DNA from: Trypanosoma brucei | Taxonomy: Eukaryota | Assembly (NCBI GenBank): GCA_000002445.1 | Contig: CM000208.1 | Location: 1,696,001 to 1,760,000 of the forward strand | Length of the DNA: 64,000 nucleotides | Reading direction: 5' to 3' | Part shown: positions 1-44,382 of the stretch, piece after piece | Layout: each line of letters begins with the position of its first letter | Numbering within the stretch: position 1 is the first letter of the stretch | Program-made: the position numbers and the translations under genes | The notes under the pieces: generated by a model | The model's database searches: none | The model's input: the letters and a program-made list of their open reading frames with translations, nothing else | What the model was told of the DNA's origin: nothing

Positions 1-2
1 GC

Positions 3-1052
3 AAGACAATTCTTTTTGCAAACATTGCTGCCATAATTATAAACATCATTTCAGCTCTTTTGGCGTATCGATCAGGCTATATTGTGGCTTCTGCTGTAAT
101 GATGACATTATGTGCCCTGCACATACTGTGGTTTTACTTTGCACGGCACCGAATTCCTTTTGCTGCAGAACTTCTCAAGGCCTCTATCGATGTGTTGTCT
201 GGCTACAAGGCGGTATATTTATTCAATGTCATGTTATGTGTTGGTTGCACAGGATTACTTATACTGTGGGCAAACGCTTTTATGTGGGCGTTTCGGAGGG
301 TTAAATGGGAGACATCCGCTTCTTTCGGGTGGCCTCTGCTTGTGTTCCTTATGCTTTTCTTATTTTGGACATCGCAGGTGACAACTAATCTGATGCATGT
401 AACAACTGCTGGACTTACTGCTACATGGTACTTTGCTGGTAAGGAGAATATGCCAAAGAATCCCACCCTCGCCTCATTCAAGCGAGGTACCACCACAAGC
501 TTCGGCTCCATTTGCTTTGGGTCACTGCTTGTGGCAATTATCCGTCTCATACGGTGGCTCGTGTCAACCGCAGAAGACAGTGAACATGAAATATTACGCT
601 GTATATTCCTTTGTATTATTGGTTGTTTGGAGAGTTTGATGGAATACTTCAACACATACGCATTTGTTCATGTTGCCATCTATGGTTGTGGGTACATTGA
701 AGCAGCGAAAATGACATGGGAGTTGTGTAAACAGTGTGTGTTTTCTGCCCTATTCAATGACACTCTGATTGATGTAACACTCGGGCTACTTGCTACTTGT
801 GGTTCGCTACTGGTTGGTAGTGTTTTTGGTTTTCTCTTAAAATCCTGGGCAGCATTCGCGTTTGGTTTTGCCGTTTCTATATTGGTTCACCTCCTCATAT
901 TCTCCCCCGTGGGTAGTGCTGTAACCACCTTATTCGTATGTTATGCGGAAGTGCCTGAGGGCCTTGAGCACTCATCCCCTGACTTGTACGCGGCTCTTCA
1001 GAGAACTGACCAAAACGGCACATCAAATGGAGCAGCACCTCCACGTGTGTAA
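3..1052 (+). CDS. Choline-transporter-like (CTL/SLC44/PNS1 family) membrane protein, copy 1; 5'-partial, the gene begins upstream of the window
   Basis: The reading frame is open back to the window edge. The C-terminal block '...TAGLTATWYFAGKENMPKNPTLASFKRGTTTSFGSICFGSLLVAIIRLIRW...RCIFLCIIGCLESLMEYFNTYAFVHVAIYGCGY' fits the CTL/PNS1 signature I recall (WYF...FGS.AFGSL..A.....R.....CC.WCLE.F..F.N.NAY...AIYG). It is near-identical to copies 2 and 3. Confidence 0.7.
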   Translation, partial: KTILFANIAAIIINIISALLAYRSGYIVASAVMMTLCALHILWFYFARHRIPFAAELLKASIDVLSGYKAVYLFNVMLCVGCTGLLILWANAFMWAFRRVKWETSASFGWPLLVFLMLFLFWTSQVTTNLMHVTTAGLTATWYFAGKENMPKNPTLASFKRGTTTSFGSICFGSLLVAIIRLIRWLVSTAEDSEHEILRCIFLCIIGCLESLMEYFNTYAFVHVAIYGCGYIEAAKMTWELCKQCVFSALFNDTLIDVTLGLLATCGSLLVGSVFGFLLKSWAAFAFGFAVSILVHLLIFSPVGSAVTTLFVCYAEVPEGLEHSSPDLYAALQRTDQNGTSNGAAPPRV

Positions 1053-1569
1053 AACTTCTTAAGCTCATGCATATAAGGAGGATATGTGTTTGTCTCTCTT
1101 CTGCAAAAACTTTCCCTCCCATACCCAATTTCGCACACTCGCACCGTGTGAAGAAGAGTCAAATATCTTTTGTTTTTGATTCACTATATATAATGCACTG
1201 AAGCGTGTGTTATGCATGCAAATAAATTGATAACATCGCTGACTCTTCTTTTTGTTCTATTATATTACTCTGTTCGATTTGCTCTTGACTATTTTGTATT
1301 TTCTTTCCGTTTCATGTGATGGATGCGAGGGACATAACCACAACATATTGAATGTGTCGCGGTGTAAACTGCTCTGCTGTGAGCGGTCAGTATTGAGTTA
1401 ATATTTTTGTTCCGTGTGTTGAGGAAGTTGAATAGAGTCCTGATGCAGTCCACTCATGCGGTAAGCAGTGATGCGCCTTAGTGTGAAAATTCCTTTGATA
1501 CTGTGTGATTTGCACACTTCCATTCTTCTTCGTCACTGGAAGCTGTTGCTACTGCATACTAATGCATCA

Positions 1570-1620
1570 TCATTTCCTATTTCCTTTCCTCTTCCATAAT
1601 TTTCCATTTTCTCTGTTTTG
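1570..1620 (+). promoter_or_regulatory. Polypyrimidine tract and downstream AG (candidate trans-splice acceptor) upstream of CTL copy 2
   Basis: A CT-rich run 'catttcctatttcctttcctcttccataattttccattttctctgtttt' is followed by AG dinucleotides before the ATG at 1726. This is the usual kinetoplastid mRNA-processing signal. Confidence 0.5.
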
Positions 1621-1725
1621 TAATCAAACAAATAAGATATATTGCAAGTGTACGCAATTGCTATCCAGCAACAAAGGGCTATAGACACTATTATCTCAGT
1701 GATAAGGTATTGTTTATTTCTGAAG

Positions 1726-3243
1726 ATGACGCAAAAGGGGTACGTCGGAGTTCCTGAGGAACCATACAGGTCTAAATTTACTCCTGAGGTGGGACCTTAT
1801 TATGGATTTGAAGGAGAAGGAACACATGCTGTGCCGCTACAAGGAATACCGCTATACCAAGGTGAAGGTAATAATCAAGAAGGATTGAAACGTTTTGTGG
1901 TACAAGGGTATAAGGATGTGTGGGCTGCAATATTATACATTTTATGCATTCTTGCAACTATTGGGCTTGGAATATATAATATTTGTCAGCAGGGATTGCG
2001 TAGTTTAATATCTGCTGATGTAGTAAATATTTTTTGGGCTTGTAATGATGATAGTTGTATTGACTCGGTGTGTCTTTTCTTTCTTCTTGCTTTTGCTTTT
2101 TCAGTTATTGTATGTTTGTCCTCTTTGTCGTTGATGAAACGTTTTGCTAGCGGAATAATCAAGGGTTGCAACGTTATTTTGCTTATTTTTTATGTCGTTG
2201 CTTTCCTTTTTTCGGTATGGGCACTTAATAACGCTTTTGCTATTCCATGGTTTTGTATGCTGGTTGTGCATTTACTTTGGCTTTTCTTTGCAGGTCGGCG
2301 TATTCCTCTCGCTGCTGAGCTTCTGAAAAGCTCTTCTACTGTGGTATGTAACTACAAAGCACTGTGCGCAGTCAACGCCGTCCTGTTTGGTGCACATGTC
2401 TTTTTCAGTGTTATGTGGGCGTCTGTTATGAAACCACTATATGCGCAGCTGGCGAAGATGGAGTTAAATCCGAGCGCTGGTGGAGCTCGCAATGAGGAAG
2501 ATTTGACTCTCAACATTCTATTCCTAAGCTTGCTTGCTCTGCTGTTCGTCATGTTTTGGGCGACGCAGGTGACAACTAATCTGATGCATGTAACAACTGC
2601 TGGACTTACTGCTACATGGTACTTTGCTGGTAAGGAGAATATGCCAAAGAATCCCACCCTCGCCTCATTCAAGCGAGGTACCACCACAAGCTTCGGCTCC
2701 ATTTGCTTTGGGTCACTGCTTGTGGCAATTATCCGTCTCATACGGTGGCTCGTGTCAACCGCAGAAGACAGTGAACATGAAATATTACGCTGTATATTCC
2801 TTTGTATTATTGGTTGTTTGGAGAGTTTGATGGAATACTTCAACACATACGCATTTGTTCATGTTGCCATCTATGGTTGTGGGTACACTGAAGCAGCGAA
2901 AATGACATGGGAGTTGTGTAAACGGTGTTCTTGTGCTGCTTTGTTTAATGACAGACTGATTGATGTGACATTATTTGTTGCTTCATTTATTGGTTCGCTA
3001 CTGGTTGGTGTTATCGTCGGTCTTGTGTCTGCATCGGGAGGTGGATTTGCGTTTGGTTTCACCGTTTCTATATTGGTTCACCTTTTCATATTCTCCCCCG
3101 TGGGTAGTGCTGTAACCACCTTATTCGTATGTTATGCGGAAGTGCCTGAGGGCCTTGAGCACTCATCCCCTGACTTGTACGCGGCTCTTCAGAGAACTGA
3201 CCAAAACGGCACATCAAATGGAGCAGCACCTCCACGTGTGTAA
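1726..3243 (+). CDS. Choline-transporter-like (CTL/SLC44/PNS1 family) membrane protein, copy 2, full length
   Basis: The ORF runs 1642–3243, and the first ATG after the pyrimidine tract is at 1726 (MTQKGYVGVPEE...). It has multiple hydrophobic segments and the CTL C-terminal signature. The last ~150 nt of CDS plus ~590 nt downstream are identical to copy 1. Confidence 0.75.
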   Translation: MTQKGYVGVPEEPYRSKFTPEVGPYYGFEGEGTHAVPLQGIPLYQGEGNNQEGLKRFVVQGYKDVWAAILYILCILATIGLGIYNICQQGLRSLISADVVNIFWACNDDSCIDSVCLFFLLAFAFSVIVCLSSLSLMKRFASGIIKGCNVILLIFYVVAFLFSVWALNNAFAIPWFCMLVVHLLWLFFAGRRIPLAAELLKSSSTVVCNYKALCAVNAVLFGAHVFFSVMWASVMKPLYAQLAKMELNPSAGGARNEEDLTLNILFLSLLALLFVMFWATQVTTNLMHVTTAGLTATWYFAGKENMPKNPTLASFKRGTTTSFGSICFGSLLVAIIRLIRWLVSTAEDSEHEILRCIFLCIIGCLESLMEYFNTYAFVHVAIYGCGYTEAAKMTWELCKRCSCAALFNDRLIDVTLFVASFIGSLLVGVIVGLVSASGGGFAFGFTVSILVHLFIFSPVGSAVTTLFVCYAEVPEGLEHSSPDLYAALQRTDQNGTSNGAAPPRV

Positions 3244-3760
3244 AACTTCTTAAGCTCATGCATATAAGGAGGATATGTGTTTGTCTCTCTTCTGCAAAAA
3301 CTTTCCCTCCCATACCCAATTTCGCACACTCGCACCGTGTGAAGAAGAGTCAAATATCTTTTGTTTTTGATTCACTATATATAATGCACTGAAGCGTGTG
3401 TTATGCATGCAAATAAATTGATAACATCGCTGACTCTTCTTTTTGTTCTATTATATTACTCTGTTCGATTTGCTCTTGACTATTTTGTATTTTCTTTCCG
3501 TTTCATGTGATGGATGCGAGGGACATAACCACAACATATTGAATGTGTCGCGGTGTAAACTGCTCTGTTGTGAGCGGTCAGTATTGAGTTAATATTTTTG
3601 TTCCGTGTGTTGAGGAAGTTGAATAGAGTCCTGATGCAGTCCACTCATGCGGTAAGCAGTGATGCGCCTTAGTGTGAAAATTCCTTTGATACTGTGTGAT
3701 TTGCACACTTCCATTCTTCTTCGTCACTGGAAGCTGTTTCTACTGCATACTAATGCATCA

Positions 3761-3812
3761 TCATTTCCTATTTCCTTTCCTCCTCCATCATTTTCCATTT
3801 TCTCTGTTTTTT
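3761..3812 (+). promoter_or_regulatory. Polypyrimidine tract (candidate splice acceptor) upstream of CTL copy 3
   Basis: This is the same CT-rich element as 1570–1620, repeated as part of the 2.2-kb tandem unit. Confidence 0.45.
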
Positions 3813-3916
3813 AATCAAACAAATAAGATATATTGCAAGTGTACGCAATTGCTATCCAGCAACAAAGGGCTATAGACACTATTATCTCAGTGATAAGGTA
3901 TTGTTTATTTCTGAAG

Positions 3917-5470
3917 ATGACGCAAAAGGGGTACGTCGGAGTTCCTGAGGAACCATACAGGTCTAAATTTACTCCTGAGGGGGGACCTTATTATGGATTT
4001 GAAGGAGAAGGAACACATGCTGTGCCGCACAAGGGAATACCGCTATACCAGGTGAAGGTTAATATCAAAAAGGGATTGAAACGTTTTGTGGTCAAGGGTA
4101 TTAGGGATGTGTGGGCTGCAATTTAATACATTTATGCATTTCTTGCAACTATTGGCTTTGCGTGGTATAATACTTTTTCTCAAAATTTTTCTGAAATTAT
4201 ATAGGATAGTGTTGGAAAGTTATTCTGGCGCAGTTCTGACGAATGCTTTACTGTTTTTCTCTCTGTTCTTTTCTTTGTTTCTTCTGTCAGTTCAGTAATT
4301 TTATCCTTGTTTTCTTTATCGTTGATGAAGCGCTTTCCACATGATATGATCATCACGGCAAACCTTCTATTCTTTGCCGTGTGCATTGTTGGTTTTTTGT
4401 TGTCTATTCTTTGGGGAAATCTTTATTTACTTCTTTTATGTTTGGGTCTTTTTATTGTGCATTGGTTATGTTTTACGGAGTTGCGGAACCGCGTTCCATT
4501 CGCTGCTGAGCTTCTGAAAAGCTCTTCTACTGTGGTATGTAACTACAAAGCACTGTGCGCAGTCAACGTCGTCCTCTTTGGTATGTTTACCCTTTTTCTG
4601 GTTTTGTGGTGCTCCGCTTTCTCTGCACTGAGCAATGTGTTGAGTAAACAACCAGACCCGAGCAGTGGTGTGAGTGGTAAACGAGGCAATTCATTTTTGA
4701 TTATTTCTGTATATTTACTGCACCTAATGTTGCTGTTTGTCATGTTTTGGGCGACGCAGGTGACAACTAATCTGATGCATGTAACAACTGCTGGACTTAC
4801 TGCTACATGGTACTTTGCTGGTAAGGAGAATATGCCAAAGAATCCCACCCTCGCCTCATTCAAGCGAGGTACCACCACAAGCTTCGGCTCCATTTGCTTT
4901 GGGTCACTGCTTGTGGCAATTATCCGTCTCATACGGTGGCTCGTGTCAACCGCAGAAGACAGTGAACATGAAATATTACGCTGTATATTCCTTTGTATTA
5001 TTGGTTGTTTGGAGAGTTTGATGGAATACTTCAACACATACGCATTTGTTCATGTTGCCATCTATGGTTGTGGGTACACTGAAGCAGCGAAAATGACATG
5101 GGAGTTGTATAAACGGTGTTCTTGTGCTGCTTTGTTTAGTTGTTTTTTTGTTGACGCTATGTTGTGTCTATTTGCAGTACTAAGCGCCCTTCTTGTTTGT
5201 GCTGTTGTTTGTACTGCTTATGGTTTAGTCTTTGATTTATCGTTTGGTATTTTGCATATTACCGCTGAAATCTTCGTATTCAGTTTTGGTGTTTGTATGT
5301 TGGTTCACCTCTTCGTCTTTTCTTCCGTAACCAGTGCTGTAACCACCTTATTCGTATGTTATGCGGAAGTGCCTGAGGGCCTTGAGCACTCATCCCCTGA
5401 CTTGTACGCGGCTCTTCAGAGAACTGACCAAAACGGCACATCAAATGGAGCAGCACCTCCACGTGTGTAA
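3917..5470 (+). pseudogene. Choline-transporter-like gene copy 3 with a frameshifted N-terminal region; either a pseudogene or an N-terminally truncated variant (intact ORF 4307–5470)
   Basis: ATG at 3917 encodes MTQKGYVGVPEE... as in copy 2, but the frame terminates at 4126. Homology then continues in a second frame (4086–4298) and a third (4307–5470, containing 'SLSLMKRF' as in copy 2). Compared with copy 2 there is a visible 1-nt deletion near 4118–4125. The C-terminal 387 aa are intact and carry the CTL signature. Confidence 0.5.
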
Positions 5471-6107
5471 AACTTCTTAAGCTCATGCATATAAGGAGGA
5501 TATGTGTTTGTCTCTCTTCTGCAAAAACTTTCCCTCCCATACCCAATTTCGCACACTCGCACCGTGTGAAGAAGAGTCAAATATCTTTTGTTTTTGATTC
5601 ACTATATATAATGCACTGAAGCGTGTGTTATGTATGCAAATAAATTGATAACATCGCTGACTCTTCTTTTTGTTCTATTATATTACTCTGTTCGATTTGC
5701 TCTTGACTATTTTGTATTTTCTTTCCGTTTCATGTGATGGATGCGAGGGACATAACCACAACATATTGAATGTGTCGCGGTGTAAACTGCTCTGTTGTGA
5801 GCGGTCAGTATTGAGTTAATATTTTTGTTCCGTGTGTTGAGGAAGTTGAATAGAGTCCTGATGCAGTCCACTCATGCGGTAATAGGAGTGACATTCCAAT
5901 GTTTGTACATTATTTGTGTCGTTTTAAATTTATTACGTCTTTTTTTTTTTTGTGTGTGTGTGTGCTTCTTGTCTTTCTGATGTTGTGGTGATGTCTTCTA
6001 TCTGTTTTTTTTTCAGTTTCTATTCATTGCTTAATATTGTTTTTTTACTTCTTTTTTATTGTTGGTGTAGATACGGATTGTAGAAGTCGTGTTGTTGGTC
6101 TGCCTGA

Positions 6108-6761
6108 ATGCGTGCGCTGTTTGGCGGTTTTGTCTTTGTTGTTGGTAACGATGTGCCGCAAGAGGTGCTTTCTCTAGTCGTTGCTTGTGGGGGTCGAGTG
6201 TGCAGGGAACTCACAGCTGCCACTACGCATGGCTTAGTTGTTGGACCTGAGTGCGGGGATTCTATTGATGTTGAACAATTACGCGGCCTGCGGATTCCAA
6301 TACTTCGAACTCATTGGATACGTGCGTGTGTAGCTGCTTTACGTATTTTGCCGATGAAAGGGGCAGCTGCTGCGTTCGACCCTTTTCTTTTTGATTCTTT
6401 ATTGTTTACAACTACGATGATGCGATGTGACCTGAAGGATCGTGTTGCTGCTCTTATTATTTTTTTGGGAGGTTCCTATTCTCCTCATCTTACCATCAGC
6501 ACTGATGTAGTGCTGGTTGGAGATGATGCGGTGGAGTCAATTAGTGGGAGTGATTGCGTTGTTGACGTTTCGCTTGTTGATAAGTCGCATCGTGGTCCCG
6601 CGAAACCTTTGGGTGCTGCAAATGCGGGCGTTAAGCGTGGTGTGCGTAGCTCAAAGTTAAAGCTGGCCGCAAGTCGCTCAATTCCATGTGTGAATTTGGT
6701 TTGGTTACAAAAGTGTATTTCCACTGGACAGGTGCATCTTCCCGTGACTGGGGGGTTGTGA
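6108..6761 (+). CDS. Hypothetical protein, possible tandem BRCT-like domains
   Basis: A 217-aa ORF sits in the same orientation as its neighbours. Two segments (FVFVVGNDVPQEVLSLVVACGGRV...THGLVVG...IPILRTHWIRAC and LIIFLGGSYSPHLTISTDVVLVG...IPCVNLVWLQKCISTG) resemble the BRCT pattern (hydrophobic–GG–TH/TD–I/V–W). Similarity is weak. Confidence 0.35.
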   Translation: MRALFGGFVFVVGNDVPQEVLSLVVACGGRVCRELTAATTHGLVVGPECGDSIDVEQLRGLRIPILRTHWIRACVAALRILPMKGAAAAFDPFLFDSLLFTTTMMRCDLKDRVAALIIFLGGSYSPHLTISTDVVLVGDDAVESISGSDCVVDVSLVDKSHRGPAKPLGAANAGVKRGVRSSKLKLAASRSIPCVNLVWLQKCISTGQVHLPVTGGL

Positions 6762-7902
6762 TGGTGCCTAGGGCCATTATTTATTATTTTTTTTACATTA
6801 GATATTACCATAGATCTTTTAATTGTGCTTTCTGTTTCGTACGTTTTATTAAGTTTCTTTTTCATTTCGTAAGCTGGTGTTCTGTTTTGAACATGTACTT
6901 TGCGGCACAAAGATTATCGTTGAAGAAAGTGTGTTTTGTACTTTTCGTTAAGTTATTATTCTTGTTGAGAGCTTAGCGACGCGTATCGTACAGAAAGTTT
7001 GCTAACTTTTCCACCACTGGTGTTGATGAATGGAGCAGCCGGGCTTGTTTGCACAGGGGGTGTGATGTTGACGTGTGCCTAGATATTAGATTGTGGATTT
7101 TCCTAGAAAAGAGAAAGGTTTGTATGCGGTGGAAGTGTCTGATGCGCGGTTTCGACCAGCGGGCCGACATTTGACAGAAGAGATTCTTCAGAGCTATTTA
7201 TTCCCGATTGAAGAGTTTCAGTTGTTTTATTTCTTTTTTAAAGTTTCATCTCTCTTTTTCTTCAGTGTGCGGTTCCCTTCTTCTCAGTTGACTTTCGGTG
7301 ACTCTGTTTCATTGCGCCCTTCTCGGTTATGTTGCTTCGTGCATATCCGTTGTTTCTTTTTTCTCCCCTTCTCTTGTCATCTTGCTTTGACTAGTTTCAT
7401 TCACAGGAAGGTTGATAATCGTCTCCACCCCGTTTTTTTTTTTGTGTTACTCATCATTTCGGAGGGGAATTGCTCATGTAACGGGGTCTCCGTTTAAAAG
7501 CGCTTCTTTTTTTTTTAAAAAAAACTCTACATTTCCTTTTTGTATTGAATGTTGTCGTTGGTTTCAACTGCCTTTCTCTTCTGTATTGCTGGGGACTTTT
7601 ATTCGTTTGTGAACTTTTTTTTTGTTTTCGGGCCCGTTTAGAAGGAAAGAAAAAAGGGAACTATATTTCTGTGTAGGCAGACGGGCGGGCTCACCACCGC
7701 AGATTGAGGCCGCGGTGATTGGGACTTGGCAAGCACCCTAAGGAAAGGCTGTCAACAAAATAGTTGTAATAAAGCCGAAACATTTGTGTGTGTGCGTGAG
7801 AGAAGGGGGGGGGAAACAGAAGAGGAGGCACTTAGAACAATAGTAAAAGCATCGTAGGGGAAACGGGTGAGGGGTTTGTGATAACAGGACGCCGGCAACC
7901 AA

Positions 7903-9678
7903 TTGATAATGTCGACCGCGCCTCCCAATCTGTTTAGCACAGTGGCAGCCTACATGGACGCGATTCTCCCCGCAGACAACGCAATGAAGGTTTTGCTGGT
8001 GGACGAAGCCACCCTTCATATAATCTCCATGGTGCGCTCGCAGACATTTTTACTCAGCAGGGGTGTGTTTCTTGTAGCGCGCGTCGATAACCACTCGCAA
8101 CGAAAGTGCATGGGGAACATGCGCTGTGTTGTGTTTATCCGACCGCAAGTTCTTAGTGTTAATGCGGTATGTGATGAACTCCGCAATCCAAAGTATGAGA
8201 GCTATGCCATTTACTTCAGTGCAGCAGCTCCATCAGAGCTACTCGATTCCTTAGCTTGCGCTGATGTGAGGGGTGTCGTGAGGTCAGTCTGCGAGGTGTT
8301 CTGCGACTTTGTTACACTGAATGCCGATGCGTTTGTCACCGCTGCCCCTGTTCCCAATGTGTTGCTACCTGGATTTATGAACTCTGGGTCATTGAAACGT
8401 GTGGCTGAGGGCATTGCGTCCACCTTTGTGGCTCACCGACGGCGCCCATACGTGCGTTATGATCAGCGGAGTGCTTTCGCTCGGAGCCTGGCAACGGTGC
8501 TCAATGATGTTCTAGGAGAAAACATTGAACTGTATGATTACAAGAGCAAGGATACCGTGTTGTTGATACTGGACCGGAACAGTGATGCCCTTACGCCTCT
8601 CATTACGCCATGGACGTACCAATCCATGCTCAACGAGCACGTAGGCCTTCAGTACAACCGACTACACTTCTCTGCTGCTACGTCTCAGAACAATCAGGAA
8701 CAAAAAGGGAGCGAAGAGGGGGAGGGAGAGTACGTGTTTTCACCAAATGATGATTCCTTTTTTGCCGCGAATATGTTTGCAAACTGGGGGGATCTGTGCC
8801 AGAACGTAAAGGAATTTGTCGACAAATGCAAATCAACGATCAATATTGATCGGAATACGGCCACAATGGATGAAATAAAGGATTACGTGCAACGGATTTC
8901 ACACACTAAGAGCATGGCGGGCTCAGTGGAAAAGCACGCTACAGTTGTAACGCACCTTTCATCAGAGATTAAGAAGCGTGGACTGCTCGAAACATCGCTT
9001 CTCGAGCAACACATGATCGTTGCTAATGACCCAACGGGGCATTGGAACCGCCTCCAGGATTTTGTTTGCCAGCGCAACCGCGGCAGTGGCGACGGTGTGG
9101 CGACTGTCACCGACATCGTCCGCTTATGCTTGATTTATCACCTGAAGTATGAAAAACCCCACCAACCATCGCGTGTGACAGAGGTGCTAAGGGGCCTAGG
9201 GGCAAACTACGGAGATCTATTGCGCAAACTACGCCAGTACAACGGTGACAGGCCGACTGAAGAGCTCTTTGGTGCCACTGGCGTCATAGCAACAATAGTT
9301 AAAAGCTTTGTTGATTCGGAGAATATTTATACACAGCACGAGGCAGTGTTGAAACGAACGCTACTGCAACTCTTCAGCGGTCGGCTACCCGTAGAGCAGT
9401 ATCCGTATCTCGGCCCCTCTTCACCTGGGAACGCTGGTGCATCTTGTTTTCACCAGCCTCAGCAACCGTTCACGTTCAAACCGAAGGAAGTGATTGTTTT
9501 TATGTGCGGTGGATATACTTATTCCGAGGCGGCGGTAATTAATGCTATTAACACGGGTTCAGCATATACCGGCTCAGCCGCAAGTAGTCTTCCACAAGGT
9601 CCTGTGCACGCCTGCATCGGTGGGACTGGAGTCCTTAACAGTGAAACCTTCCTGAGCCTGCTAGCAGCGCACGCATGA
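7903..9678 (+). CDS. VPS45: Vacuolar protein sorting-associated protein 45 (Sec1/Munc18 family)
   Basis: Blocks align closely with my memory of human VPS45: 'MKVLLVDEATLHIISMV', 'LRNPKYESYAIYFS', 'LLILDRNSDALTPLITPWTYQSMLNEHVGLQYNRL', 'ENIYTQHEAVLKRTLLQLFSGRLPVEQYPYLGPSS' and 'VIVFMCGGYTYSEAAVINAIN'. Length is 591 aa. Confidence 0.85.
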   Translation: MIMSTAPPNLFSTVAAYMDAILPADNAMKVLLVDEATLHIISMVRSQTFLLSRGVFLVARVDNHSQRKCMGNMRCVVFIRPQVLSVNAVCDELRNPKYESYAIYFSAAAPSELLDSLACADVRGVVRSVCEVFCDFVTLNADAFVTAAPVPNVLLPGFMNSGSLKRVAEGIASTFVAHRRRPYVRYDQRSAFARSLATVLNDVLGENIELYDYKSKDTVLLILDRNSDALTPLITPWTYQSMLNEHVGLQYNRLHFSAATSQNNQEQKGSEEGEGEYVFSPNDDSFFAANMFANWGDLCQNVKEFVDKCKSTINIDRNTATMDEIKDYVQRISHTKSMAGSVEKHATVVTHLSSEIKKRGLLETSLLEQHMIVANDPTGHWNRLQDFVCQRNRGSGDGVATVTDIVRLCLIYHLKYEKPHQPSRVTEVLRGLGANYGDLLRKLRQYNGDRPTEELFGATGVIATIVKSFVDSENIYTQHEAVLKRTLLQLFSGRLPVEQYPYLGPSSPGNAGASCFHQPQQPFTFKPKEVIVFMCGGYTYSEAAVINAINTGSAYTGSAASSLPQGPVHACIGGTGVLNSETFLSLLAAHA

Positions 9679-10090
9679 TGTGCCGCCCTCGCCTGTTTTG
9701 GCGGGGACATTGCGCCTCCGCATGGTGGTATGAATAAACGAAACCAAAATACGGTGCGCGGGGGGGGGCGCAAAACGGTGGGGATATGTTTTTGGTGAGC
9801 AAGCTGTCAGCTACAATCCTTGCTTTTGTTTTCCTTTCACGATCTATACAAGAATAAAATCCTTCAGTAACCGGATGCTGACTTGCGTTGATGGTGTGTA
9901 CGTGCATAGCACCTTCACTGTTTAATGGGTCATACCCCTTACCGTATCATATATATCCACCTTGTCCTTCCTGCTCCTTTCTCTTATGCGTTTCCATTCT
10001 GTCTTGTTGCTTCTGCTGCTGTTGACATCTCAACGTTTGGTCAGAGGGAGTAACTTACCCTCCAGCATCGTTGGTTGAGGTGGCGTACGC

Positions 10091-13000
10091 ATGCCTTCAA
10101 CGTCCTCAACAGCAATTTTGGTTGCGCCCAGGGGACCCACTGTGCGTGAGAAGGGTGATCAAATCCCATCATTAGTCGAGCTTCTTTTGGAGTTATCAAG
10201 TTCTGTAAGTGGCGATTTTGCTAGTGGATTCCAACGCGGCTGCCCCGCAGCAGCTTTGGGCACAGGGAACGTAACTTGTGTGAGTGCGGCCCATCCTTCC
10301 TCTACCTCCTCGGATGGTTCGTGGAGTAACTCAGTGCGCGTGCCGCGCAAGCGACGCCGACACGTGCTGGATGCATTCTTCGATACGGCCGCCTGTTGCC
10401 CGACATCGTCGCCCGCGCCCCTTCGCCGCCGCATACGTGAGCTATTCCGTAACGCGAAGCAGAATGTTCTTCACACAGCGAAAACCCACGCCTCCATGCT
10501 GGAGCTGCTTTGCTCTCTAATTGCCCCCTGTGTTGTGCGTAACTGCAGTGCGCCGAATGGAACGGACGATAGGGAGCTTTCGGAAGCAGAATTGATGCTG
10601 TATATCGTCCTTCGGACAAGCATTGCCGCCGCGCCCACGTGGCAGAAACCGCCCGTCGTTCCGCGCTGCTGGTTGTCATCGTCAATAACGGCAATCGTGG
10701 AGCGGTCAGTTGAGATACAACAAGCTCTGTGCTGGTCCTGTGACCCCGACCCCGTCGTGACTGCAGTTTTGGGTATAAATGCTGTTGAACACAGGCGTTT
10801 GGCACTAAGCTCATTTAATTTCTCCCAGTGGTTGAATGATTTGCCCTGTCACGTTGACGGTGTGAGGGGCGCTGCCGCTTCGTCGCCTAGTGAAGGCTCA
10901 AGGTTAACAGGATTCAGTCGTTATAGCAAGACTCACTGCTCTTGGGTTGCGGTGGAGAGTGAAGATGTGCGGCGGCTGTTTGAAAGGAAGCGGACGCACG
11001 TAATGGCTAGCGAGGAAGGGCCGGCAGCCTGCCAGTATGGGTGGTTAATGGAGGGTTCAAGCGCGTGTGGAACATCCCCACTGGATGTCGCTTCCCGTAG
11101 TATTGCAGACGATTTAACCAGTTCGTGTTTTTCGCTGTTCCGTGAGGTTTACCCGTCTCACTCACCCTTCTGTTCCCTCCTGTACGTCGCACTTCACAGG
11201 AGTGTTATTGGGCGGCAGGACCCTTACTTGCTGTTGTCCTTACGGCAAGAAAACTCGGATTACAAAGATTCACCTACGAACTCATTGTCACCTCCATTCA
11301 GGTCTCCACTACTACCGCGCGTGTTTGCTACACCAGGGGCGCCTTCCTCATCCTTTCCCTGCATCACGGTGAGCGCGGAGTTTCTTTGCTCGGTTCGTTG
11401 CAGCAAAGGATGCAAGGATCTGGGGGGTAAGGCTTCTCAGTCGTCAATCACCGACGGCACCGAAGCGTTTGAAGCCGCAAGCACGGTTTGCTCCAGGGGT
11501 GTCATGGCCATGTTGCAGTGGAGTTGTCGCTGTGGAACATTGTTCCTCCGACTCCTTCACCTTTGCGACGTTGCCGAACGTCCGGAGTTTCGAGTGGCCC
11601 TTGGATTGTACGGCAGGAGTGCCATCACCGCCTTACGCAGATTGCTTTTCCATTTGCAGCGCCTCGTGGTGGACATCTCTGAACGACCCGGAGGTCCACG
11701 CGGCGTATCATTTTCGGAGCTAGTGCTGGCGAGTCAACGCCTCCGTCCCGTGGTGGAGGATGTAATAACGCTGAGTGATATCTTTCACGTGCATGCCGAG
11801 GCTGCATGGGATCCCGATACTGCCATTAGGGAAATTTCGTCAGCCACACTACTTTCGGCACTTCATGGGCACTACCAGCGGCGGCTAACAAACAAACTCG
11901 GATGCGGTACCAGTCCTGGCGTCTCACGGGCGCAACCGGACGTTGTTGGGAATGTGTTCATCTCTGTGCTACAGCCACTGCACAAAACGCTGTGGATGTG
12001 GATTTGTAGGGGTGAGTTGCACGACCCCTTCGATGAGTTCTTTGTTGTTGCGTCGGCTGGTGCTCCGGGTTTGAGCTACTCTGTGGATGTCTCACCCCAG
12101 AGACTCCCTAGTTTCATTTCAGTGGAGGCTGCGCACAAAATTCTACATGCCGGCATTAGCCTCCGTGCTCTCCGTATTGCCACGCTTCATATCCAGGAGT
12201 GTGTGGAAAAAAACCAAAGGGGTCAACGGGGGTTGGTTGAGGATGTTGACGCTGCTGCCATGCTTCGGAGTAAGGTGGAAGATGCGGCTCGCATCAAAGG
12301 CTTCCTTCAAGACTTCATGAAGGCGCTTACTGGTTATCAGCGCTCTAAAGAGCTTTTGTCAACCCCAATGGTAGATTTGTTGCTGAAAGAAGGTGAGCTG
12401 CCGTACTGGCACACTTTTTATCGTGCCTGCAGTGGGATATTACTTCCCTCTTGTGGCGACGTGGCGAGCGATGAAGCTAAAAATGATGAACCCGAGAACG
12501 GCACCGCTGGTTGGGAGGGATCTTCTCTGGTGGTGCTCGAGGAGTCCCAACAGCCAGGTGAAGTTGGACCTAGCGGCTCATTTGGATCATCGGACCAAAG
12601 ATCGGTGAGCGTCGTTGGTGTAGAGGTCGTATCAATGAGTGCAAGCGTGTCACACTCGACCGGGGCTGCGTCGCCGCCACAGGGAACAATGTCGGTGGAT
12701 ACAACTTTTGCTACTGGAGCCGTAGGCAAAGGGGAAACGGGTGCGTCAACGACTCAGGCAACGTTGTGTCGTGAGTACGAATTGGGGTTGCTCCACCGCC
12801 AAACGAGGCAGCGGTTACAACAGTGGAAGGCACAGCGACAGTCCCTTAACTTATCTCGTGCCTCCGCCATATCAAGAACCGTTGATGAGCTGGCCGACTT
12901 CTATGAAAATGCGAGAAGGATCGGACCACTACGTTGTGGGGCTCCTGGCAGGTGGACTGAGGAGGAAAGTATCGGGATGGATGAGGGTGCCCCTGACCAC

Positions 13001-30725: not shown

Positions 30726-31748
<1,023 letters not shown>

Positions 31749-32367
31749 GAAAGTGGGCTTTTAGCCACTTCTTTTCTTTTTTGTTGCGTTTTACCCCCTA
31801 CTCATCAAGGTAAAATGCTCTCGCTTCAAACATTCAACCCGAAAGCAACCACGACGAGTGCCAATAGGAGATTGGCCGGGGGAAGCAGGAGGTACTTATA
31901 TCTTTTTCAATTCAACAAATTTATGGGGATATAACGCGCAATTTGTGGAGTTCTGTGACACAATTAAAAGGGGTCAGTTTTTTTTGTTTTTCTCTTGCAT
32001 CAAACAATACCCTCCAGGAAAATTAAAGCGGCGGGAGATTATAGCTAAGTGACTTCACAGAGGCACCAAAGGATGCCGTTAGCACAAAAAAACAGATTTC
32101 ATATGTACTACATGTCACACGAAAAAAAAAGAGAGTTAATTTCAGGAGTAGTATACTAAAAGAGCAGCCAAAAAACCAGAATAAAATGAGGAAACTTTTG
32201 ATACAAACACAAGAAAAAGTTTGTACGCCATTATTTGCTTAAATTTATCAAACATCAGATACAACCCGTTAGTATTAAACCCAGCCTGCGACAATTGCAA
32301 CACAACATTTAAAAATGTTCTCTCCTTATTTCATAACGAAAAGTGAAGTGCACAACACAGCACCAAC

Positions 32368-32682
32368 GCTGATAGAACATCAGGCAGCAAGGGTGACGCT
32401 ACTGCCAAATGCGCCATAAGTGATGCCTACACGAGGAGTGCCATTAAGGCTTTTGCCTCCAACTTTCCAGAGGAACTGAACCGCGTTTTCATAGCCCATG
32501 GGTTGCTTGACGAGAACGTTCACTTCTGTCACACGAGCGTTGTGGTTAATGCCATGATCGACGCGGGCAAACCGTGCTGCAGCGTTGTTTACCCTGGTGA
32601 GCGCCACTCCCTTCGGAAGAAGAAGGCATCGCGACTACACCATGACGCGATGCTCGCAAAGACACTTATGGAGGTGCTTTAA
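32368..32682 (+). pseudogene. Relic 3'-terminal fragment (last ~100 codons) of the DPP8-like serine peptidase gene, a duplicate of 42103–42417
   Basis: Nucleotides 32368–32682 are essentially identical to the last 315 nt of the peptidase CDS at 39865–42417 (…DGTSGSKGDATAKCAISDAY…LAKTLMEVL*). Upstream of 32368 the similarity stops and there is no ORF continuation. Confidence 0.8.
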
Positions 32683-34960
32683 TTGTGGACTACTTGCGTT
32701 GTGTAGTGTACTGGTAGCGGTTGCTTAATTACGAGGGAAACATGCTTGTTGCACATCTGTGTGGCTGGGGATGTGCTTGACCAATAATGATGATAACATC
32801 TGCGGCAGTGCTCGCGTGCACTTTAATTTATTTTTGTATGGGAAGAGTCACACACCATTTCTACCTTCCCTGCCTTCCGTGCTACAGTAGTTGTACCCGT
32901 TTCCGCTGTGCTGCAACCAATATGTTCATTTCACTATGCATTTCCAATACACACACACACACATGCACATACATTTTCCTTCTAGTATATGTACCGTAGC
33001 ACCACAACGAATGCCCACCACCCTTGTGAGAATGATGAGATTGCCATCATACTATTGGAAGACGAGTCTGAACCCTGATGCATTTTATCATGCGGCACTG
33101 ACGATCTTACATTGCGGTTAGTTGTGATCCCCTTGCCCATGTGTTTTTGTATGCTGCTTGCAGGAACGTGGCAGGCCACCGAGGTCACACTCGTGCTTCG
33201 CGTGGTTCAACAACATGGTCCCAGATTGTAGGTTCTTTGTTACTGGTGTGTATGATGAGAAACCTATTTTTATGTAACTCGGGAGAACTGAGCATATTAC
33301 CTGATGAGTAAACAATCAATCGTTAGATAGTAGCACTGATGTTACCTCTTGGTTTTATGTGTGTTGTAACTTTCCACTGTTGTCATTATCATCCCCTTTA
33401 ATAGCGAGTGGTCTTTGTGTGCATCTCCGCAAACCACTCGTCTACACCGGGGGAAAGATAAACGAGTGGAATGTTGTTAGTGTTGTGTGTCTGTGTCCGT
33501 CGTACTAGTAAAGGATGATGAGGATGCGGCCACCCCACGCGACGTGATGCGGTGTGTTGTTGACACTGCAGGCGTGTAGTTTCCCCTCCGCTGCCGTTGC
33601 AAAAGCAAACCCATTTTGGGCAACATACGCAGCCGCGCGCCACAAGACGCCTCCACCGCTCGACGGGGTGCCGCCATGACGCGGGTCCCGAGCCAAAGTC
33701 CCTCGCCCGAATTTCCGAAGGCAGTGAGTGCCTCGCGTGGGGAGACCTGCGCGCAGTAAAACCTCGTGCCGCTGGCGGTGCGGGGGCCACCGGCTGTGGT
33801 GGTTGATCCCCTCTGGTGGATCCCACAGCAGCAACTACGCGGGCCGTACTTTCGTCGGTGCGAGACTCCCCACCCGGTGGTATGAATGGCGGGCACCACT
33901 GAGTACACGTATAGCCATGAGCGGCATGTGCAGAAGAGGGCTTACAAAGGAGGCAGCGCGAGCGAGCGAATGGGTAACACTGGCGCGCTGCAGAGAAAGC
34001 AGCATCATTTCACCGCATCCGTTTGCGGGCGTGTGGTGCGCACCCGCTGACTCGCATATGCGTTCACATTCACCTCCTCCTTCTTTTCTCATTTTTATCC
34101 CCTACTTGAGAACAGATACAAACTACCCCACCTTGCCATACCCCTTCACACACCTATTATGTATTGTACCTGCACCATCACGTGATGAGCATTCAATTCA
34201 CATCGCGACACACCGATGATTCAAATGAGTGAGCTACGAATGGAATAAATTAAATCGAGAAAGAACAGCTGAGATGCCTACGTGCTTGTGCGCTTGTGCT
34301 ACTTCCCCTCTTGTAGTCCCCCTTCTATACCTGTGTCGTCGTCATTCCATCTTAATCGAAGGTGATGTCTGTTCCTGATGACGAGCACTCATTTCAAGCT
34401 GCGCGAGCATAAGCGTGTTGCTCCGTGGTCGGGTGACGTGCGAGACACCGCTCACACCCTATTACTGTGATGGGTGCCCACTAGCCTTGTGAGAATGATG
34501 AGATTGCCATCATACTATTGGAAGACGAGTCTGAACCCTGATGCATTTTATCATGCGGCACTGACGATCTTACATTGCGGTTAGTTGTGATCCCCTTGCC
34601 CATGTGTTTTTGTATGCTGCTTGCAGGAACGTGGCAGGCTACCGAGGTCACACTCGTGCTTCGCGTGGTTCAACAACATGGTCCCAGATTGTAGGTTCTT
34701 TGTTACTGGTGTGTATGATGAGAAACCTATTTTTATGTAACTCGGGAGAACTGAGCATATTACCTGATGAGTAAACAATCAATCGTTAGATAGTAGCACT
34801 GATGTTACCTCTTGGTTTTATGTGTGTTGTAACTTTCCACTGTTGTCATTATCATCCCCTTTAATAGCGAGTGGTCTTTGTGTGCATCTCCGCAAACCAC
34901 TCGTCTACACCAGGGGAAAGATAAACGAGTGGAATGTTGTTAGTGTTGTGTGTCTCTGTG
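32368..34960 (+). repeat. Segmental duplication copy 1: peptidase 3' fragment + direct repeat A (33012–33493) + GC-rich non-coding core B (33494–34467) + direct repeat A' (34468–34953)
   Basis: The block is repeated at 42103–44343 at roughly 99% identity; the ORF track shows matching spurious ORFs at 32380/42115, 33398/43133, 33728/43463 and so on. A and A' are ~99% identical to each other (spurious ORFs 33118–33315 and 34581–34778 differ by 1 aa). Confidence 0.9.
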
Positions 34961-35599: not shown

Positions 35600-36685
35600 T
35601 TGATTATGTCGGCCGGATCTCGTGGCCCACTTTCCCTGCTCATTGCCCGTGAACGTGATGCCAATGGTGTGAATGGCGATGTGAATGCAACGGCTGGACG
35701 CCTGCGTGACCGATACGATGGGAAGGGTGCCTCCGCCAGTGAGCGACGGCAGGATGCGACATCGCTGACCAACGAGTACTACGATATCGTTACAGATTTC
35801 TATGAATACGGTTGGGGGCAAAACTTCCACTTTGCTCCTCGGTACATGAATGAGACGTTCTACGAATCACTCGCACGGTATGAGTACTTTCTTGCGTACC
35901 ATGCTCAGTTCAAACCGACGGACACTGTGCTAGACGTTGGCTGCGGGATTGGTGGGCCAGCACGAAACATGGTACGGTTCACATCGTGCAACGTGATGGG
36001 TGTAAATAATAATGAGTATCAAATAAATCGCGCGCGGCAGCACGATTCCCGCTACGGGATGAGCGGTAAAATTAACTACACTAAGACCGACTTCTGTAAC
36101 ATGTGCTTTGGCGACAACGAGTTCGACGGAGCATACGCCATCGAGGCGACATGCCACTCAGAGAGTAAGGTAAAGTGCTATAGTGAAGTGTTTCGCGCTA
36201 TCAAACCTGGTGCCTACTTTATGCTGTACGAGTGGTGTTTGACGGACCTGTATGACCCGGCAAATGAGGAACACCAGCGTGTCCGGCATGGTATCGAACT
36301 TGGCGACGGTCTTCCTGAACTCGACACGATGCGGCAGGTTGTCGCAGCGGTAAAGGCCGCCGGTTTCGTTGTGGAAGAGAGCTTTGACATGGCGGAACGA
36401 TTCGAAAGTGGCGAGCCGAAGAGCGTCCCGTGGTATGAGCCACTGCAGGGGAGTTACACGTCGCTGAGTGGACTTCGGGCGACCCCTGCAGGGCGCTGGT
36501 TGACGAGTGTAACATGTCGTTTGCTCGAGGCTGTGCGCCTCGCACCGGCAGGTACATGTAAGGCGACAGAGATCCTCGAAGAAGGAGCGGTGAACCTTGT
36601 CAAGGGGGGCGAACTTGGGATATTCACGCCATCCTTCTTTGTGAAGGCGCGTAAACCGCGTCTTGGGGAAGAGCTGTCGTGCTAA
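35600..36685 (+). CDS. SMT: Sterol 24-C-methyltransferase (ERG6/SMT)
   Basis: 'YYDIVTDFYEYGWGQNFHFAP' is an SMT hallmark. The SAM-binding motif I 'VLDVGCGIGGP' and the sterol-MT C-terminal domain (YEWCLTDLYDP, ...GDGLPEL) are both present. Length is 361 aa. Confidence 0.9.
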   Translation: MIMSAGSRGPLSLLIARERDANGVNGDVNATAGRLRDRYDGKGASASERRQDATSLTNEYYDIVTDFYEYGWGQNFHFAPRYMNETFYESLARYEYFLAYHAQFKPTDTVLDVGCGIGGPARNMVRFTSCNVMGVNNNEYQINRARQHDSRYGMSGKINYTKTDFCNMCFGDNEFDGAYAIEATCHSESKVKCYSEVFRAIKPGAYFMLYEWCLTDLYDPANEEHQRVRHGIELGDGLPELDTMRQVVAAVKAAGFVVEESFDMAERFESGEPKSVPWYEPLQGSYTSLSGLRATPAGRWLTSVTCRLLEAVRLAPAGTCKATEILEEGAVNLVKGGELGIFTPSFFVKARKPRLGEELSC

Positions 36686-44343: not shown

Positions 44344-44382
44344 TTATCTCTTTGTGTTTTTTTTTGACATTAGTTTGTACGC

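What the first reader, a model, noticed from the sequence alone, without database searches (positions are those of the whole stretch)
1..5880. Mosaic tandem array of three choline-transporter-like genes on a ~2.2-kb repeat unit
Three consecutive CTL/PNS1-family genes end at 1052, 3243 and 5470, a spacing of 2191 and 2227 bp. Each is followed by an essentially identical ~590-bp 3' flank and pyrimidine tract, and they share an identical ~340-bp internal block (2550–2890 and its equivalents). Their N-terminal halves, one internal loop and the penultimate TM region differ sharply between copies. Alternating identical and divergent blocks like this is what gene conversion or segmental homogenisation over a diversifying family produces. 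The array ends near 5880, where similarity to the other unit flanks stops.
Basis: partly seen in the sequence, partly recalled or inferred. Interest (0 to 1): 0.6.

Follow-up and report, generated by a model that had tools for sequence, protein, structure and literature searches.

The report
Known mosaic transporter-like gene array, T. brucei
This is the tail end of a tandem array of choline-transporter-like membrane-protein genes on Trypanosoma brucei chromosome 10. Some blocks are kept identical by recombination between copies while others stay very different, and the array and its mosaic nature were already published in 2007 and 2010.

Summary
Three head-to-tail PF04515 (Choline_transpo) genes end at 1052, 3243 and 5470, and identical and highly divergent blocks alternate along them.

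The window is T. brucei brucei TREU927 chromosome 10. The array is "array 103 / Tb10.70.0040 (DUF580)" of Jackson 2007. The T. b. gambiense genome paper later listed it among arrays with recombination breakpoints and subspecies-specific mosaics.

- Between paralogues, the share of synonymous sites that differ (pS) is 0–0.03 in the constant blocks and 0.54–0.76 (saturated) in the main variable block.
- The non-coding spacers are 99% identical.
- One variable block is closer to a T. congolense gene than to its own neighbours, while the constant blocks are homogenised within each species.
- T. equiperdum carries a 505/517-type chimeric last copy.

Corrections:
- The array has five units in TREU927. 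The window cuts it and shows only 2.5.
- The third flank shares only 412 nt with the spacers and has its own pyrimidine tract.
- The third gene is not intact here. A 270-nt patch (3981–4250) carries 19 substitutions and 14 strictly alternating ±1 indels, most likely poor reference sequence.

The family name does not give the function: RNAi reportedly left choline uptake unaffected. The finding is ordinary and already known.

The parts
3..1052 (+). C-terminal 349 codons plus stop of the '490b'-type CTL gene. It is the third unit of the array and its 5' part lies outside the window.
   Evidence: PF04515 hit at E = 4.7e-67. Identical over the aligned part to the TREU927 490-aa protein P0003. Colinear with T. 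equiperdum copy 3.
1053..1725 (+). Inter-unit spacer 1: 3' UTR, a pyrimidine-rich tract at about 1540-1625, the presumed trans-splice acceptor, and the 5' UTR of the next gene.
   Evidence: 5 mismatches in 673 nt against spacer 2. The tract is 72% pyrimidine. The splice and polyadenylation roles are inferred from trypanosomatid gene organisation, not tested.
1726..3243 (+). Intact 505-aa CTL gene, the fourth unit. It equals EAN78089.1 / XP_822917.1 / Q38AT1.
   Evidence: Exact sequence match in the protein collection. PF04515 at E = 1.1e-68. Matches the PNS1 structure 9f63 at E = 4.7e-29. About 10-11 hydrophobic spans.
2548..2947 (+). Constant core block D in copy 2. Its equivalents are 373-732 in copy 1 and 4739-5138 in copy 3. 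It encodes the family's most conserved segment (VTTNLMHV...SFGSICFGSLLVA...YFNTYAFV).
   Evidence: 399 of 400 identical between copies 2 and 3, and 359 of 360 between copies 1 and 2. pS is 0-0.026 among paralogues.
1960..2547 (+). Variable block C in copy 2 (TM1 end to TM6, including the loop before TM6). Its equivalent in copy 3 is about 4150-4738. It contains a conserved 69-nt island, 2309-2377 = 4500-4568.
   Evidence: 16-28 identities per 40 columns. pS is 0.54-0.76 and pN is 0.32-0.53. The island is 69 of 69 identical.
2948..3105 (+). Variable block E in copy 2 (the last two TM helices). Its equivalents are 733-914 in copy 1 and 5139-5332 in copy 3, the latter with 36 extra nt.
   Evidence: For the 505-type against the 517-type, pS is 0.64.
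3244..3916 (+). Inter-unit spacer 2.
   Evidence: 5 mismatches in 673 nt against spacer 1.
3917..5470 (+). The 517-type CTL copy, fifth and last unit. It is disrupted in this sequence by two in-frame stops and local frameshifts. The longest ORF, 4307-5470, still hits PF04515.
   Evidence: The orthologue in T. b. gambiense DAL972 is an intact 517-aa gene, P0002. No TREU927 protein accession falls between EAN78089 and EAN78090, so I infer it is not annotated as coding.
3981..4250 (+). Aberrant patch in copy 3: 19 substitutions, 7 one-base insertions and 7 one-base deletions relative to T. b. gambiense. The indels alternate strictly and net to zero.
   Evidence: The remaining 1220 nt of the gene differ at only 3 positions. 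Part of the patch lies where all other copies, including window copy 2, are identical.
5471..5882 (+). Terminal shared 3' flank. The array boundary lies at 5882/5883.
   Evidence: 1 mismatch in 411 nt against spacer 2, then 64 of 100 mismatches beyond the boundary.

Best explanation
The region is the 3' end of a five-unit, head-to-tail array of choline-transporter-like (SLC44/PNS1-family, PF04515) membrane-protein genes on chromosome 10 of Trypanosoma brucei brucei TREU927. It lies inside a single same-strand polycistronic transcription unit.

The paralogue types are old. Recombination between misaligned units (gene conversion and unequal crossing-over) keeps overwriting some segments: the spacers and UTRs, a short N-terminal island, the roughly 350-400-nt conserved core and the C-terminal tail. 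These segments stay nearly identical within a species.

Recombination does not erase the N-terminal TM bundle or the last two TM helices. These have diverged so far that they remain copy-specific. I infer that the divergence itself blocks heteroduplex formation, and that selection may also retain distinct isoforms.

Each unit carries the same 3' UTR, spacer and 5' UTR. I therefore infer that the copies are processed and regulated alike, and that the array yields a small set of isoforms with one invariant core. The substrate is unknown. The name 'choline transporter' is a family label only.
For: Identity of the locus:
- The 505-aa product and the downstream BRCT protein exactly equal TREU927 proteins EAN78089.1 and EAN78090.1.
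- Every ORF of 250 aa or more in the 64-kb window is on the + strand.

Family:
- PF04515 at E = 1e-64 to 1e-68.
- Yeast PNS1 structure 9f63 at E = 5e-29.

Mosaic structure:
- Breakpoints mapped.

Homogenisation rather than selection:
- pS is 0-0.026 in blocks D and F, against 0.54-0.76 in block C and up to 0.64 in block E.
- The spacers differ at 5 of 673 nt and the terminal flank at 1 of 411.

Old paralogues with species-specific homogenisation:
- In block C, the T. brucei 490a type is 58% identical to T. congolense P0007, 51-52% to its own neighbours and 28-29% to the 505 and 517 types.
- In blocks D and F, the T. brucei copies are 92-100% identical to each other and 71-84% to T. congolense.
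- The two T. congolense proteins are 87% and 96% identical to each other in D and F, but only 37% in C.

Ongoing recombination:
- Copy content differs between assemblies. DAL972 has 489/490a/505/517 and T. equiperdum has 489/490a/490b/505.
- The last T. equiperdum copy is 505-type up to about codon 435 of the alignment, then identical to the 517 type (0 of 45 mismatches against 12 of 45).

Published:
- Array 103 'Tb10.70.0040', chromosome 10, 1641891-1649912, 4 annotated copies (5 in Table S1), DUF580, one gene-conversion event scored (PMC1855330).
- PHI p<0.001, 4 LRT and 6 GARD breakpoints, 3 shared and 1+1 unique isoforms (PMC2854126).
Against: No direct evidence here shows which recombination mechanism dominates, conversion or unequal crossing-over. 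Nothing shows that the variable blocks are kept by selection rather than merely shielded by their divergence. dN/dS cannot be interpreted because dS is saturated.

Block D is also the most conserved part of the family across eukaryotes, so purifying selection adds to its amino-acid identity. It does not explain the synonymous identity.

The trans-splicing and polyadenylation sites, and equal regulation of the copies, are inferred and not shown. The five-unit count for TREU927 is inferred from the published coordinates and from the other two assemblies, because the window does not contain the upstream units.
Confidence: 0.9

Rival explanations
1. The identical blocks reflect only strong purifying selection on an essential transporter core. 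No recombination between copies is involved.
For: Block D holds the family's most conserved motifs. For example, SFGSICFGSLLVA is identical in yeast PNS1. Block D is 64-72% identical even to Leishmania, T. cruzi and related orthologues.
Against: Synonymous sites are also identical: pS is 0-0.026, against 0.54-0.76 next door. So are 673 nt of non-coding spacer. In blocks D and F the copies group by species, not by paralogue type.
Confidence: 0.03
2. The copies are very recent duplicates. The variable blocks arose afterwards by rapid diversifying selection or local hypermutation.
For: Surface-exposed families in African trypanosomes often evolve fast. In block C the 505 and 517 types are as far from all orthologues (21-25%) as from each other's relatives, which suggests accelerated change.
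Against: Synonymous sites in block C are saturated. The 490a block C is closer to a T. congolense gene than to its own neighbours. The same paralogue types exist in three subspecies or strains. Variation runs through the TM helices and is not confined to loops.
Confidence: 0.05
3. The array, or its mosaic pattern, is an assembly artefact in which reads from one or two genes were chimerically assembled.
For: Tandem repeats with 400-670-nt identical stretches are hard to assemble from Sanger shotgun reads. The 3981-4250 patch looks like poor-quality sequence.
Against: Three independent assemblies (TREU927, DAL972 and T. equiperdum GCA_003543875.1) carry the same distinct paralogue types in the same order. 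Window 1379-12000 is colinear with DAL972 at 99.3%. Each unit has long unique variable blocks.
Confidence: 0.02
4. Side question on copy 3. The 517-type copy is a genuine decaying pseudogene in TREU927, not an intact gene misread in the reference. This does not compete with the explanations of the array above, so its confidence is not meant to add up with theirs.
For: Two in-frame stops and frameshifts. No protein accession falls between EAN78089 and EAN78090. T. equiperdum has lost this unit altogether, so it may be dispensable.
Against: All lesions sit in one 270-nt patch: 33 events, against 3 differences in the other 1220 nt. The 14 indels are all single bases, alternate strictly between deletion and insertion, and net to zero. 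Many substitutions are adjacent multi-base swaps. This fits base-calling errors on a poor trace better than neutral decay.
Confidence: 0.3

Closest known systems
T. brucei tandem gene array 103 ('Tb10.70.0040', DUF580 hypothetical protein) of Jackson 2007 (PMC1855330) and Jackson et al. 2010 (PMC2854126)
   Same: It is the same locus:
- Chromosome 10 at about 1.64-1.65 Mb.
- First coding sequence of 1470 nt.
- 4 annotated copies, 5 in Table S1.
- 11 predicted TM helices.
- DUF580, which is PF04515.
- Concerted evolution, a scored gene-conversion event, PHI p<0.001, 4-6 breakpoints and subspecies-specific isoforms.
   Different: Nothing essential differs. What is new here is descriptive:
- Window-coordinate breakpoints.
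- Block-wise synonymous divergence.
- Block-wise comparison with T. congolense.
- The T. equiperdum 505/517 chimera.
- The suspect patch in the fifth unit.
Other mosaic tandem arrays of T. brucei membrane proteins (ISG65, amino-acid transporters, hexose transporters, GRESAG4 adenylate cyclases)
   Same: They are head-to-tail units in polycistronic clusters. They show recombination breakpoints in 31 of 35 variable arrays and carry subspecies-specific recombinant copies (PMC2854126).
   Different: This array is small, with five units. Its constant and variable blocks contrast unusually sharply: near-zero against saturated synonymous divergence within one gene.
Yeast PNS1 and animal SLC44A1-5 (CTL1-5)
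   Same: They share the PF04515 domain across the C-terminal two-thirds. The alignment to the PNS1 structure 9f63 covers residues 68-487. All are multi-span membrane proteins.
   Different: The trypanosome proteins are shorter (489-517 aa) and the loop after TM1 is only about 30 residues. No transport activity is assigned. RNAi of the T. brucei CTLs reportedly left choline uptake unaffected (Macedo et al. 2013, as cited in PMC4010794). Source names likewise describe yeast PNS1 as not affecting choline transport.

Membership tests
CTL / PNS1 / SLC44 family (Pfam PF04515 Choline_transpo, formerly DUF580) | Significant full-length match to the PF04515 profile, above the gathering score | tested here: met
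   Scores of 227, 232 and 218 bits against a cut-off of 26.9, covering profile positions 2-326 of 326.
CTL / PNS1 / SLC44 family (Pfam PF04515 Choline_transpo, formerly DUF580) | Polytopic membrane protein with about 10 TM helices | tested here: met
   Kyte-Doolittle scan of the 505-aa protein gives about 10-11 hydrophobic spans. Jackson 2007 Table S3 lists 11 TM. This is a crude method and no topology was predicted.
CTL / PNS1 / SLC44 family (Pfam PF04515 Choline_transpo, formerly DUF580) | Sequence homology to a structurally characterised member | tested here: met
   phmmer hit to yeast PNS1, PDB 9f63_A, at E = 4.7e-29, covering residues 68-487.
CTL / PNS1 / SLC44 family (Pfam PF04515 Choline_transpo, formerly DUF580) | Choline or ethanolamine transport activity | not testable with these tools
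   The literature points against it. RNAi of the T. brucei CTLs did not affect choline uptake (Macedo 2013, as cited in PMC4010794).
Tandem gene array evolving by partial gene conversion or concerted evolution | Head-to-tail units on one strand with homologous spacers | tested here: met
   Units of 2191 and 2227 nt. The spacers are 99.3% identical.
Tandem gene array evolving by partial gene conversion or concerted evolution | Sharp heterogeneity of synonymous divergence along the paralogues | tested here: met
   pS is 0-0.026 in blocks D and F, against 0.54-0.76 in block C.
Tandem gene array evolving by partial gene conversion or concerted evolution | Paralogues group by species in homogenised segments, but by type (or not at all) in non-homogenised segments | tested here: met
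   Block-wise identity matrix with T. congolense, T. vivax, T. cruzi and others. These are identities only, and no formal tree or recombination test was run here. Formal PHI, LRT and GARD tests are published.
Tandem gene array evolving by partial gene conversion or concerted evolution | Recombinant or copy-number variants between close lineages | tested here: met
   Unit content differs in DAL972 and T. equiperdum. The T. equiperdum last copy is a 505/517 chimera.

The most novel reading that the evidence does not exclude
The array may be a modular isoform generator. One invariant, recombination-maintained core (TM7-9 plus the C-terminal tail, with identical UTRs) would be combined with copy-specific N-terminal and terminal TM modules that set different substrate specificities or partner interactions. 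The fast-evolving 505 and 517 types would be African-trypanosome innovations unrelated to choline. If so, the block boundaries would mark functional module boundaries of the still poorly understood CTL fold.
Probability: 0.15. Interest if true: 0.4.

Novelty: already known. Interest (0 to 1): 0.12.

Why it matters
It matters little beyond confirmation. The locus is a clean textbook case of segmental concerted evolution. Within one gene, synonymous divergence switches between about zero and saturation at sharp breakpoints.

There are two practical points. First, the fifth unit of the TREU927 reference probably contains a 270-nt stretch of poor sequence that makes an intact gene look like a pseudogene. 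This affects annotation and read mapping in a widely used reference genome. Second, the 'choline transporter' label should not be read as the function.

Tried and rejected
- I looked for the TREU927 locus itself upstream of the window, using exact-protein look-ups of P0121 and P0003. Neither is on record, so the five-unit count rests on the published coordinates and on the DAL972 and T. equiperdum loci.
- I looked for further T. brucei-group assemblies through the BRCT neighbour. Only five Logan contigs of 1.1-1.4 kb turned up, too short to reach the array.
- Tandem Repeats Finder reports nothing, because the 2.2-kb period exceeds its 500-nt limit. No tRNAs were found.
- Full-text searches for 'choline transporter-like' with Trypanosoma brucei gave no primary paper on these genes. 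Macedo 2013 is not in the searchable library and is cited second-hand.
- I ran no further search on the 517-type N-terminus. In one search its 90% cluster (P0002) has a single member and no other close fragments appeared.
- dN/dS was considered as a test for diversifying selection and rejected, because dS is saturated in the variable blocks.
- No structure prediction was run. It would not change the verdict.
Full report
**What is there.** ORF listing and repeat finding show three same-strand ORFs ending at 1052, 3243 and 5470. Families of direct repeats are spaced 2191 and 2227 nt apart. All three ORFs match Pfam PF04515 (Choline_transpo) over the whole profile, at E = 5e-67, 1e-68 and 2e-64. 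The 505-aa product also matches the solved yeast PNS1 structure 9f63 at E = 5e-29. A hydropathy scan gives about 10-11 membrane spans.

**Where it comes from.** The 505-aa protein (1726-3243) is exactly EAN78089.1 / XP_822917.1 of Trypanosoma brucei brucei TREU927. The BRCT protein downstream (6108-6761) is exactly EAN78090.1. Every ORF of 250 aa or more in the 64-kb window lies on the + strand, as expected for a trypanosomatid polycistronic unit.

The syntenic loci in T. b. gambiense DAL972 (L002) and T. b. equiperdum (L001) each hold four CTL genes between a 396-aa gene and the BRCT gene. DAL972 has 489/490a/505/517 aa and T. equiperdum has 489/490a/490b/505 aa. Window copy 1 is the 490b type, copy 2 the 505 type and copy 3 the 517 type. 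The published TREU927 coordinates, 1,641,891-1,649,912, span 8.0 kb and four annotated copies, with five counted in another table. From these I infer that TREU927 has five units and that the window shows only the last two and a half.

**Block structure.** The map comes from pairwise and three-way alignments.
- **Spacers.** 1053-1725 and 3244-3916 are 673 nt long and differ at 5 positions.
- **Terminal flank.** 5471-5882 differs from them at 1-2 of 411 positions. It then diverges abruptly at 5882/5883, where 64 of the next 100 positions mismatch. The terminal flank lacks the spacers' pyrimidine tract. The BRCT gene has its own T-rich tract at 5925-6065.
- **Start of copies 2 and 3.** These two copies share the 5' UTR and about the first 230 nt of coding sequence.
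- **Block C (variable).** This is the end of TM1 through TM6. It contains a 69-nt identical island, 2309-2377 = 4500-4568.
- **Block D (constant).** All three copies share 373-726 = 2564-2923 = 4755-5108. Between copies 2 and 3 the identity extends to 400 nt.
- **Block E (variable).** This covers the last two TM helices, and copy 3 has 36 extra nt.
- **Block F.** The last 45 codons are identical in every copy.

**Why the identical blocks are recombinational.** I used the intact copies of DAL972 and T. equiperdum and calculated the proportion of synonymous differences between paralogues, pS, by the Nei-Gojobori method.

| Block | pS between paralogues |
|---|---|
| C (variable) | 0.54-0.76, saturated |
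| E (variable) | up to 0.64 |
| D (constant) | 0-0.026 |
| F (constant) | 0 |

Protein-level selection cannot remove synonymous differences or keep 673 nt of spacer identical.

A block-wise comparison with other trypanosomes adds the phylogenetic signature.
- In block C, the 490a type is 58% identical to a T. congolense protein. It is only 51-52% identical to its own neighbours and 28-29% to the 505 and 517 types.
- In blocks D and F, all T. brucei copies are 92-100% identical to one another and 71-84% to T. congolense.
- The two T. congolense proteins are 87% and 96% identical to each other in D and F, but only 37% in C.

The paralogue types therefore predate the split between T. brucei and T. 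congolense, and the constant blocks have been homogenised separately in each species.

Recombination is ongoing. The last T. equiperdum copy is 505-type up to about codon 435 of the alignment. It then becomes identical to the 517 type, with 0 of 45 mismatches against 12 of 45 to the 505 type. T. equiperdum has no separate 517 unit. This pattern fits an unequal exchange between the two units.

**Already published.** Jackson 2007 (PMC1855330) lists array 103, 'Tb10.70.0040', on chromosome 10. It has a 1470-nt coding sequence, 11 TM helices and the domain 'DUF580'. The paper reports mean Ds of 0.48 and Dn of 0.29, support for concerted evolution, and one scored conversion tract in the 5' UTR between copies 3 and 2.

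DUF580 is the former name of PF04515. This rests on my own knowledge. It is consistent with the 'DUF580-domain-containing' names on PF04515 hits.

[quoted passage not shown] It lists the same array with 4 and 4 annotated copies, 3 shared isoforms and 1 unique isoform in each subspecies. It reports PHI p<0.001, 4 LRT breakpoints and 6 GARD breakpoints. These counts match my reconstruction: 490b is unique to T. b. brucei, and 517 counts as unique to T. b. gambiense because the TREU927 copy is not annotated as coding.

**Copy 3 is not intact in this sequence.** Read in the gene's frame, 3917-5470 contains two stop codons. Compared with the DAL972 orthologue, the lesions lie in one patch, 3981-4250. 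The patch holds 19 substitutions, 7 one-base insertions and 7 one-base deletions. The indels alternate strictly (missing, extra, missing, and so on) and leave the total length unchanged. The remaining 1220 nt of the gene differ at only 3 positions. Part of the patch falls where all other copies, including window copy 2, are identical.

I read this as a stretch of poor-quality reference sequence inside a hard-to-assemble repeat, with probability about 0.7. A genuine pseudogene is the alternative. Read mapping would decide between them.

**Function.** The family label is not a function. A review citing Macedo et al. 2013 states that RNAi of the putative T. brucei CTLs did not affect choline uptake (PMC4010794). 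I could not read the primary paper.

Mechanistically, I commit to the following. The array sits in a polycistronic unit. Each mRNA is defined by trans-splicing after the spacer's pyrimidine tract and by polyadenylation in the shared 3' UTR; this is inferred. The array produces four or five isoforms that share one invariant core and tail and differ in the TM1-6 and TM10-11 modules. Inter-unit gene conversion and unequal crossing-over maintain the shared parts. That recombination occurs is shown. Which of the two mechanisms dominates is inferred. Whether the variable modules are kept by selection, or merely shielded by their divergence, cannot be decided, because dS is saturated.

**Verdict.** The array is real but ordinary for T. 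brucei and already described, so interest is low.

Noticed in passing
window 3981-4250: A 270-nt patch in the last CTL unit carries 19 substitutions plus 7 insertions and 7 deletions of one base, relative to T. b. gambiense. The indels alternate strictly and net to zero. The rest of the gene differs at 3 of 1220 positions. It looks like base-calling error in the TREU927 reference, making an intact 517-aa gene appear to be a pseudogene.
   Followed up: partly
window 32361-34610 and 42096-44345 (also 33012-33496 = 34475-34959): A 2.25-kb dispersed duplicate, 99.8% identical, about 9.7 kb apart. It carries H/ACA snoRNA genes TB10Cs1H1, H2 and H3 (Rfam RF01522-RF01524, 8 hits at 87-97 bits), so the known chromosome-10 snoRNA cluster is present in repeated copies.
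   Followed up: partly
L001 10001-11518 (T. b. equiperdum last CTL copy): This copy is a chimera. It is 505-type up to about codon 435 of the alignment. A 45-nt stretch then matches no sampled copy (14-24 of 45 mismatches). After that it is identical to the 517 type. T. equiperdum lacks a separate 517 unit, which suggests an unequal exchange that deleted one unit.
   Followed up: partly
window 30753-31748 and 35600-36685: A GAPDH-like ORF of 331 aa ([15 protein letters not shown]...) and a methyltransferase-like ORF of 361 aa flank the first snoRNA repeat. I identified them by eye from the translation only and ran no domain search.
   Followed up: no
window 1-64000: All 24 ORFs of 250 aa or more are on the + strand, and GC skew is positive throughout. 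The whole window lies in one polycistronic transcription unit with no strand switch.
   Followed up: no
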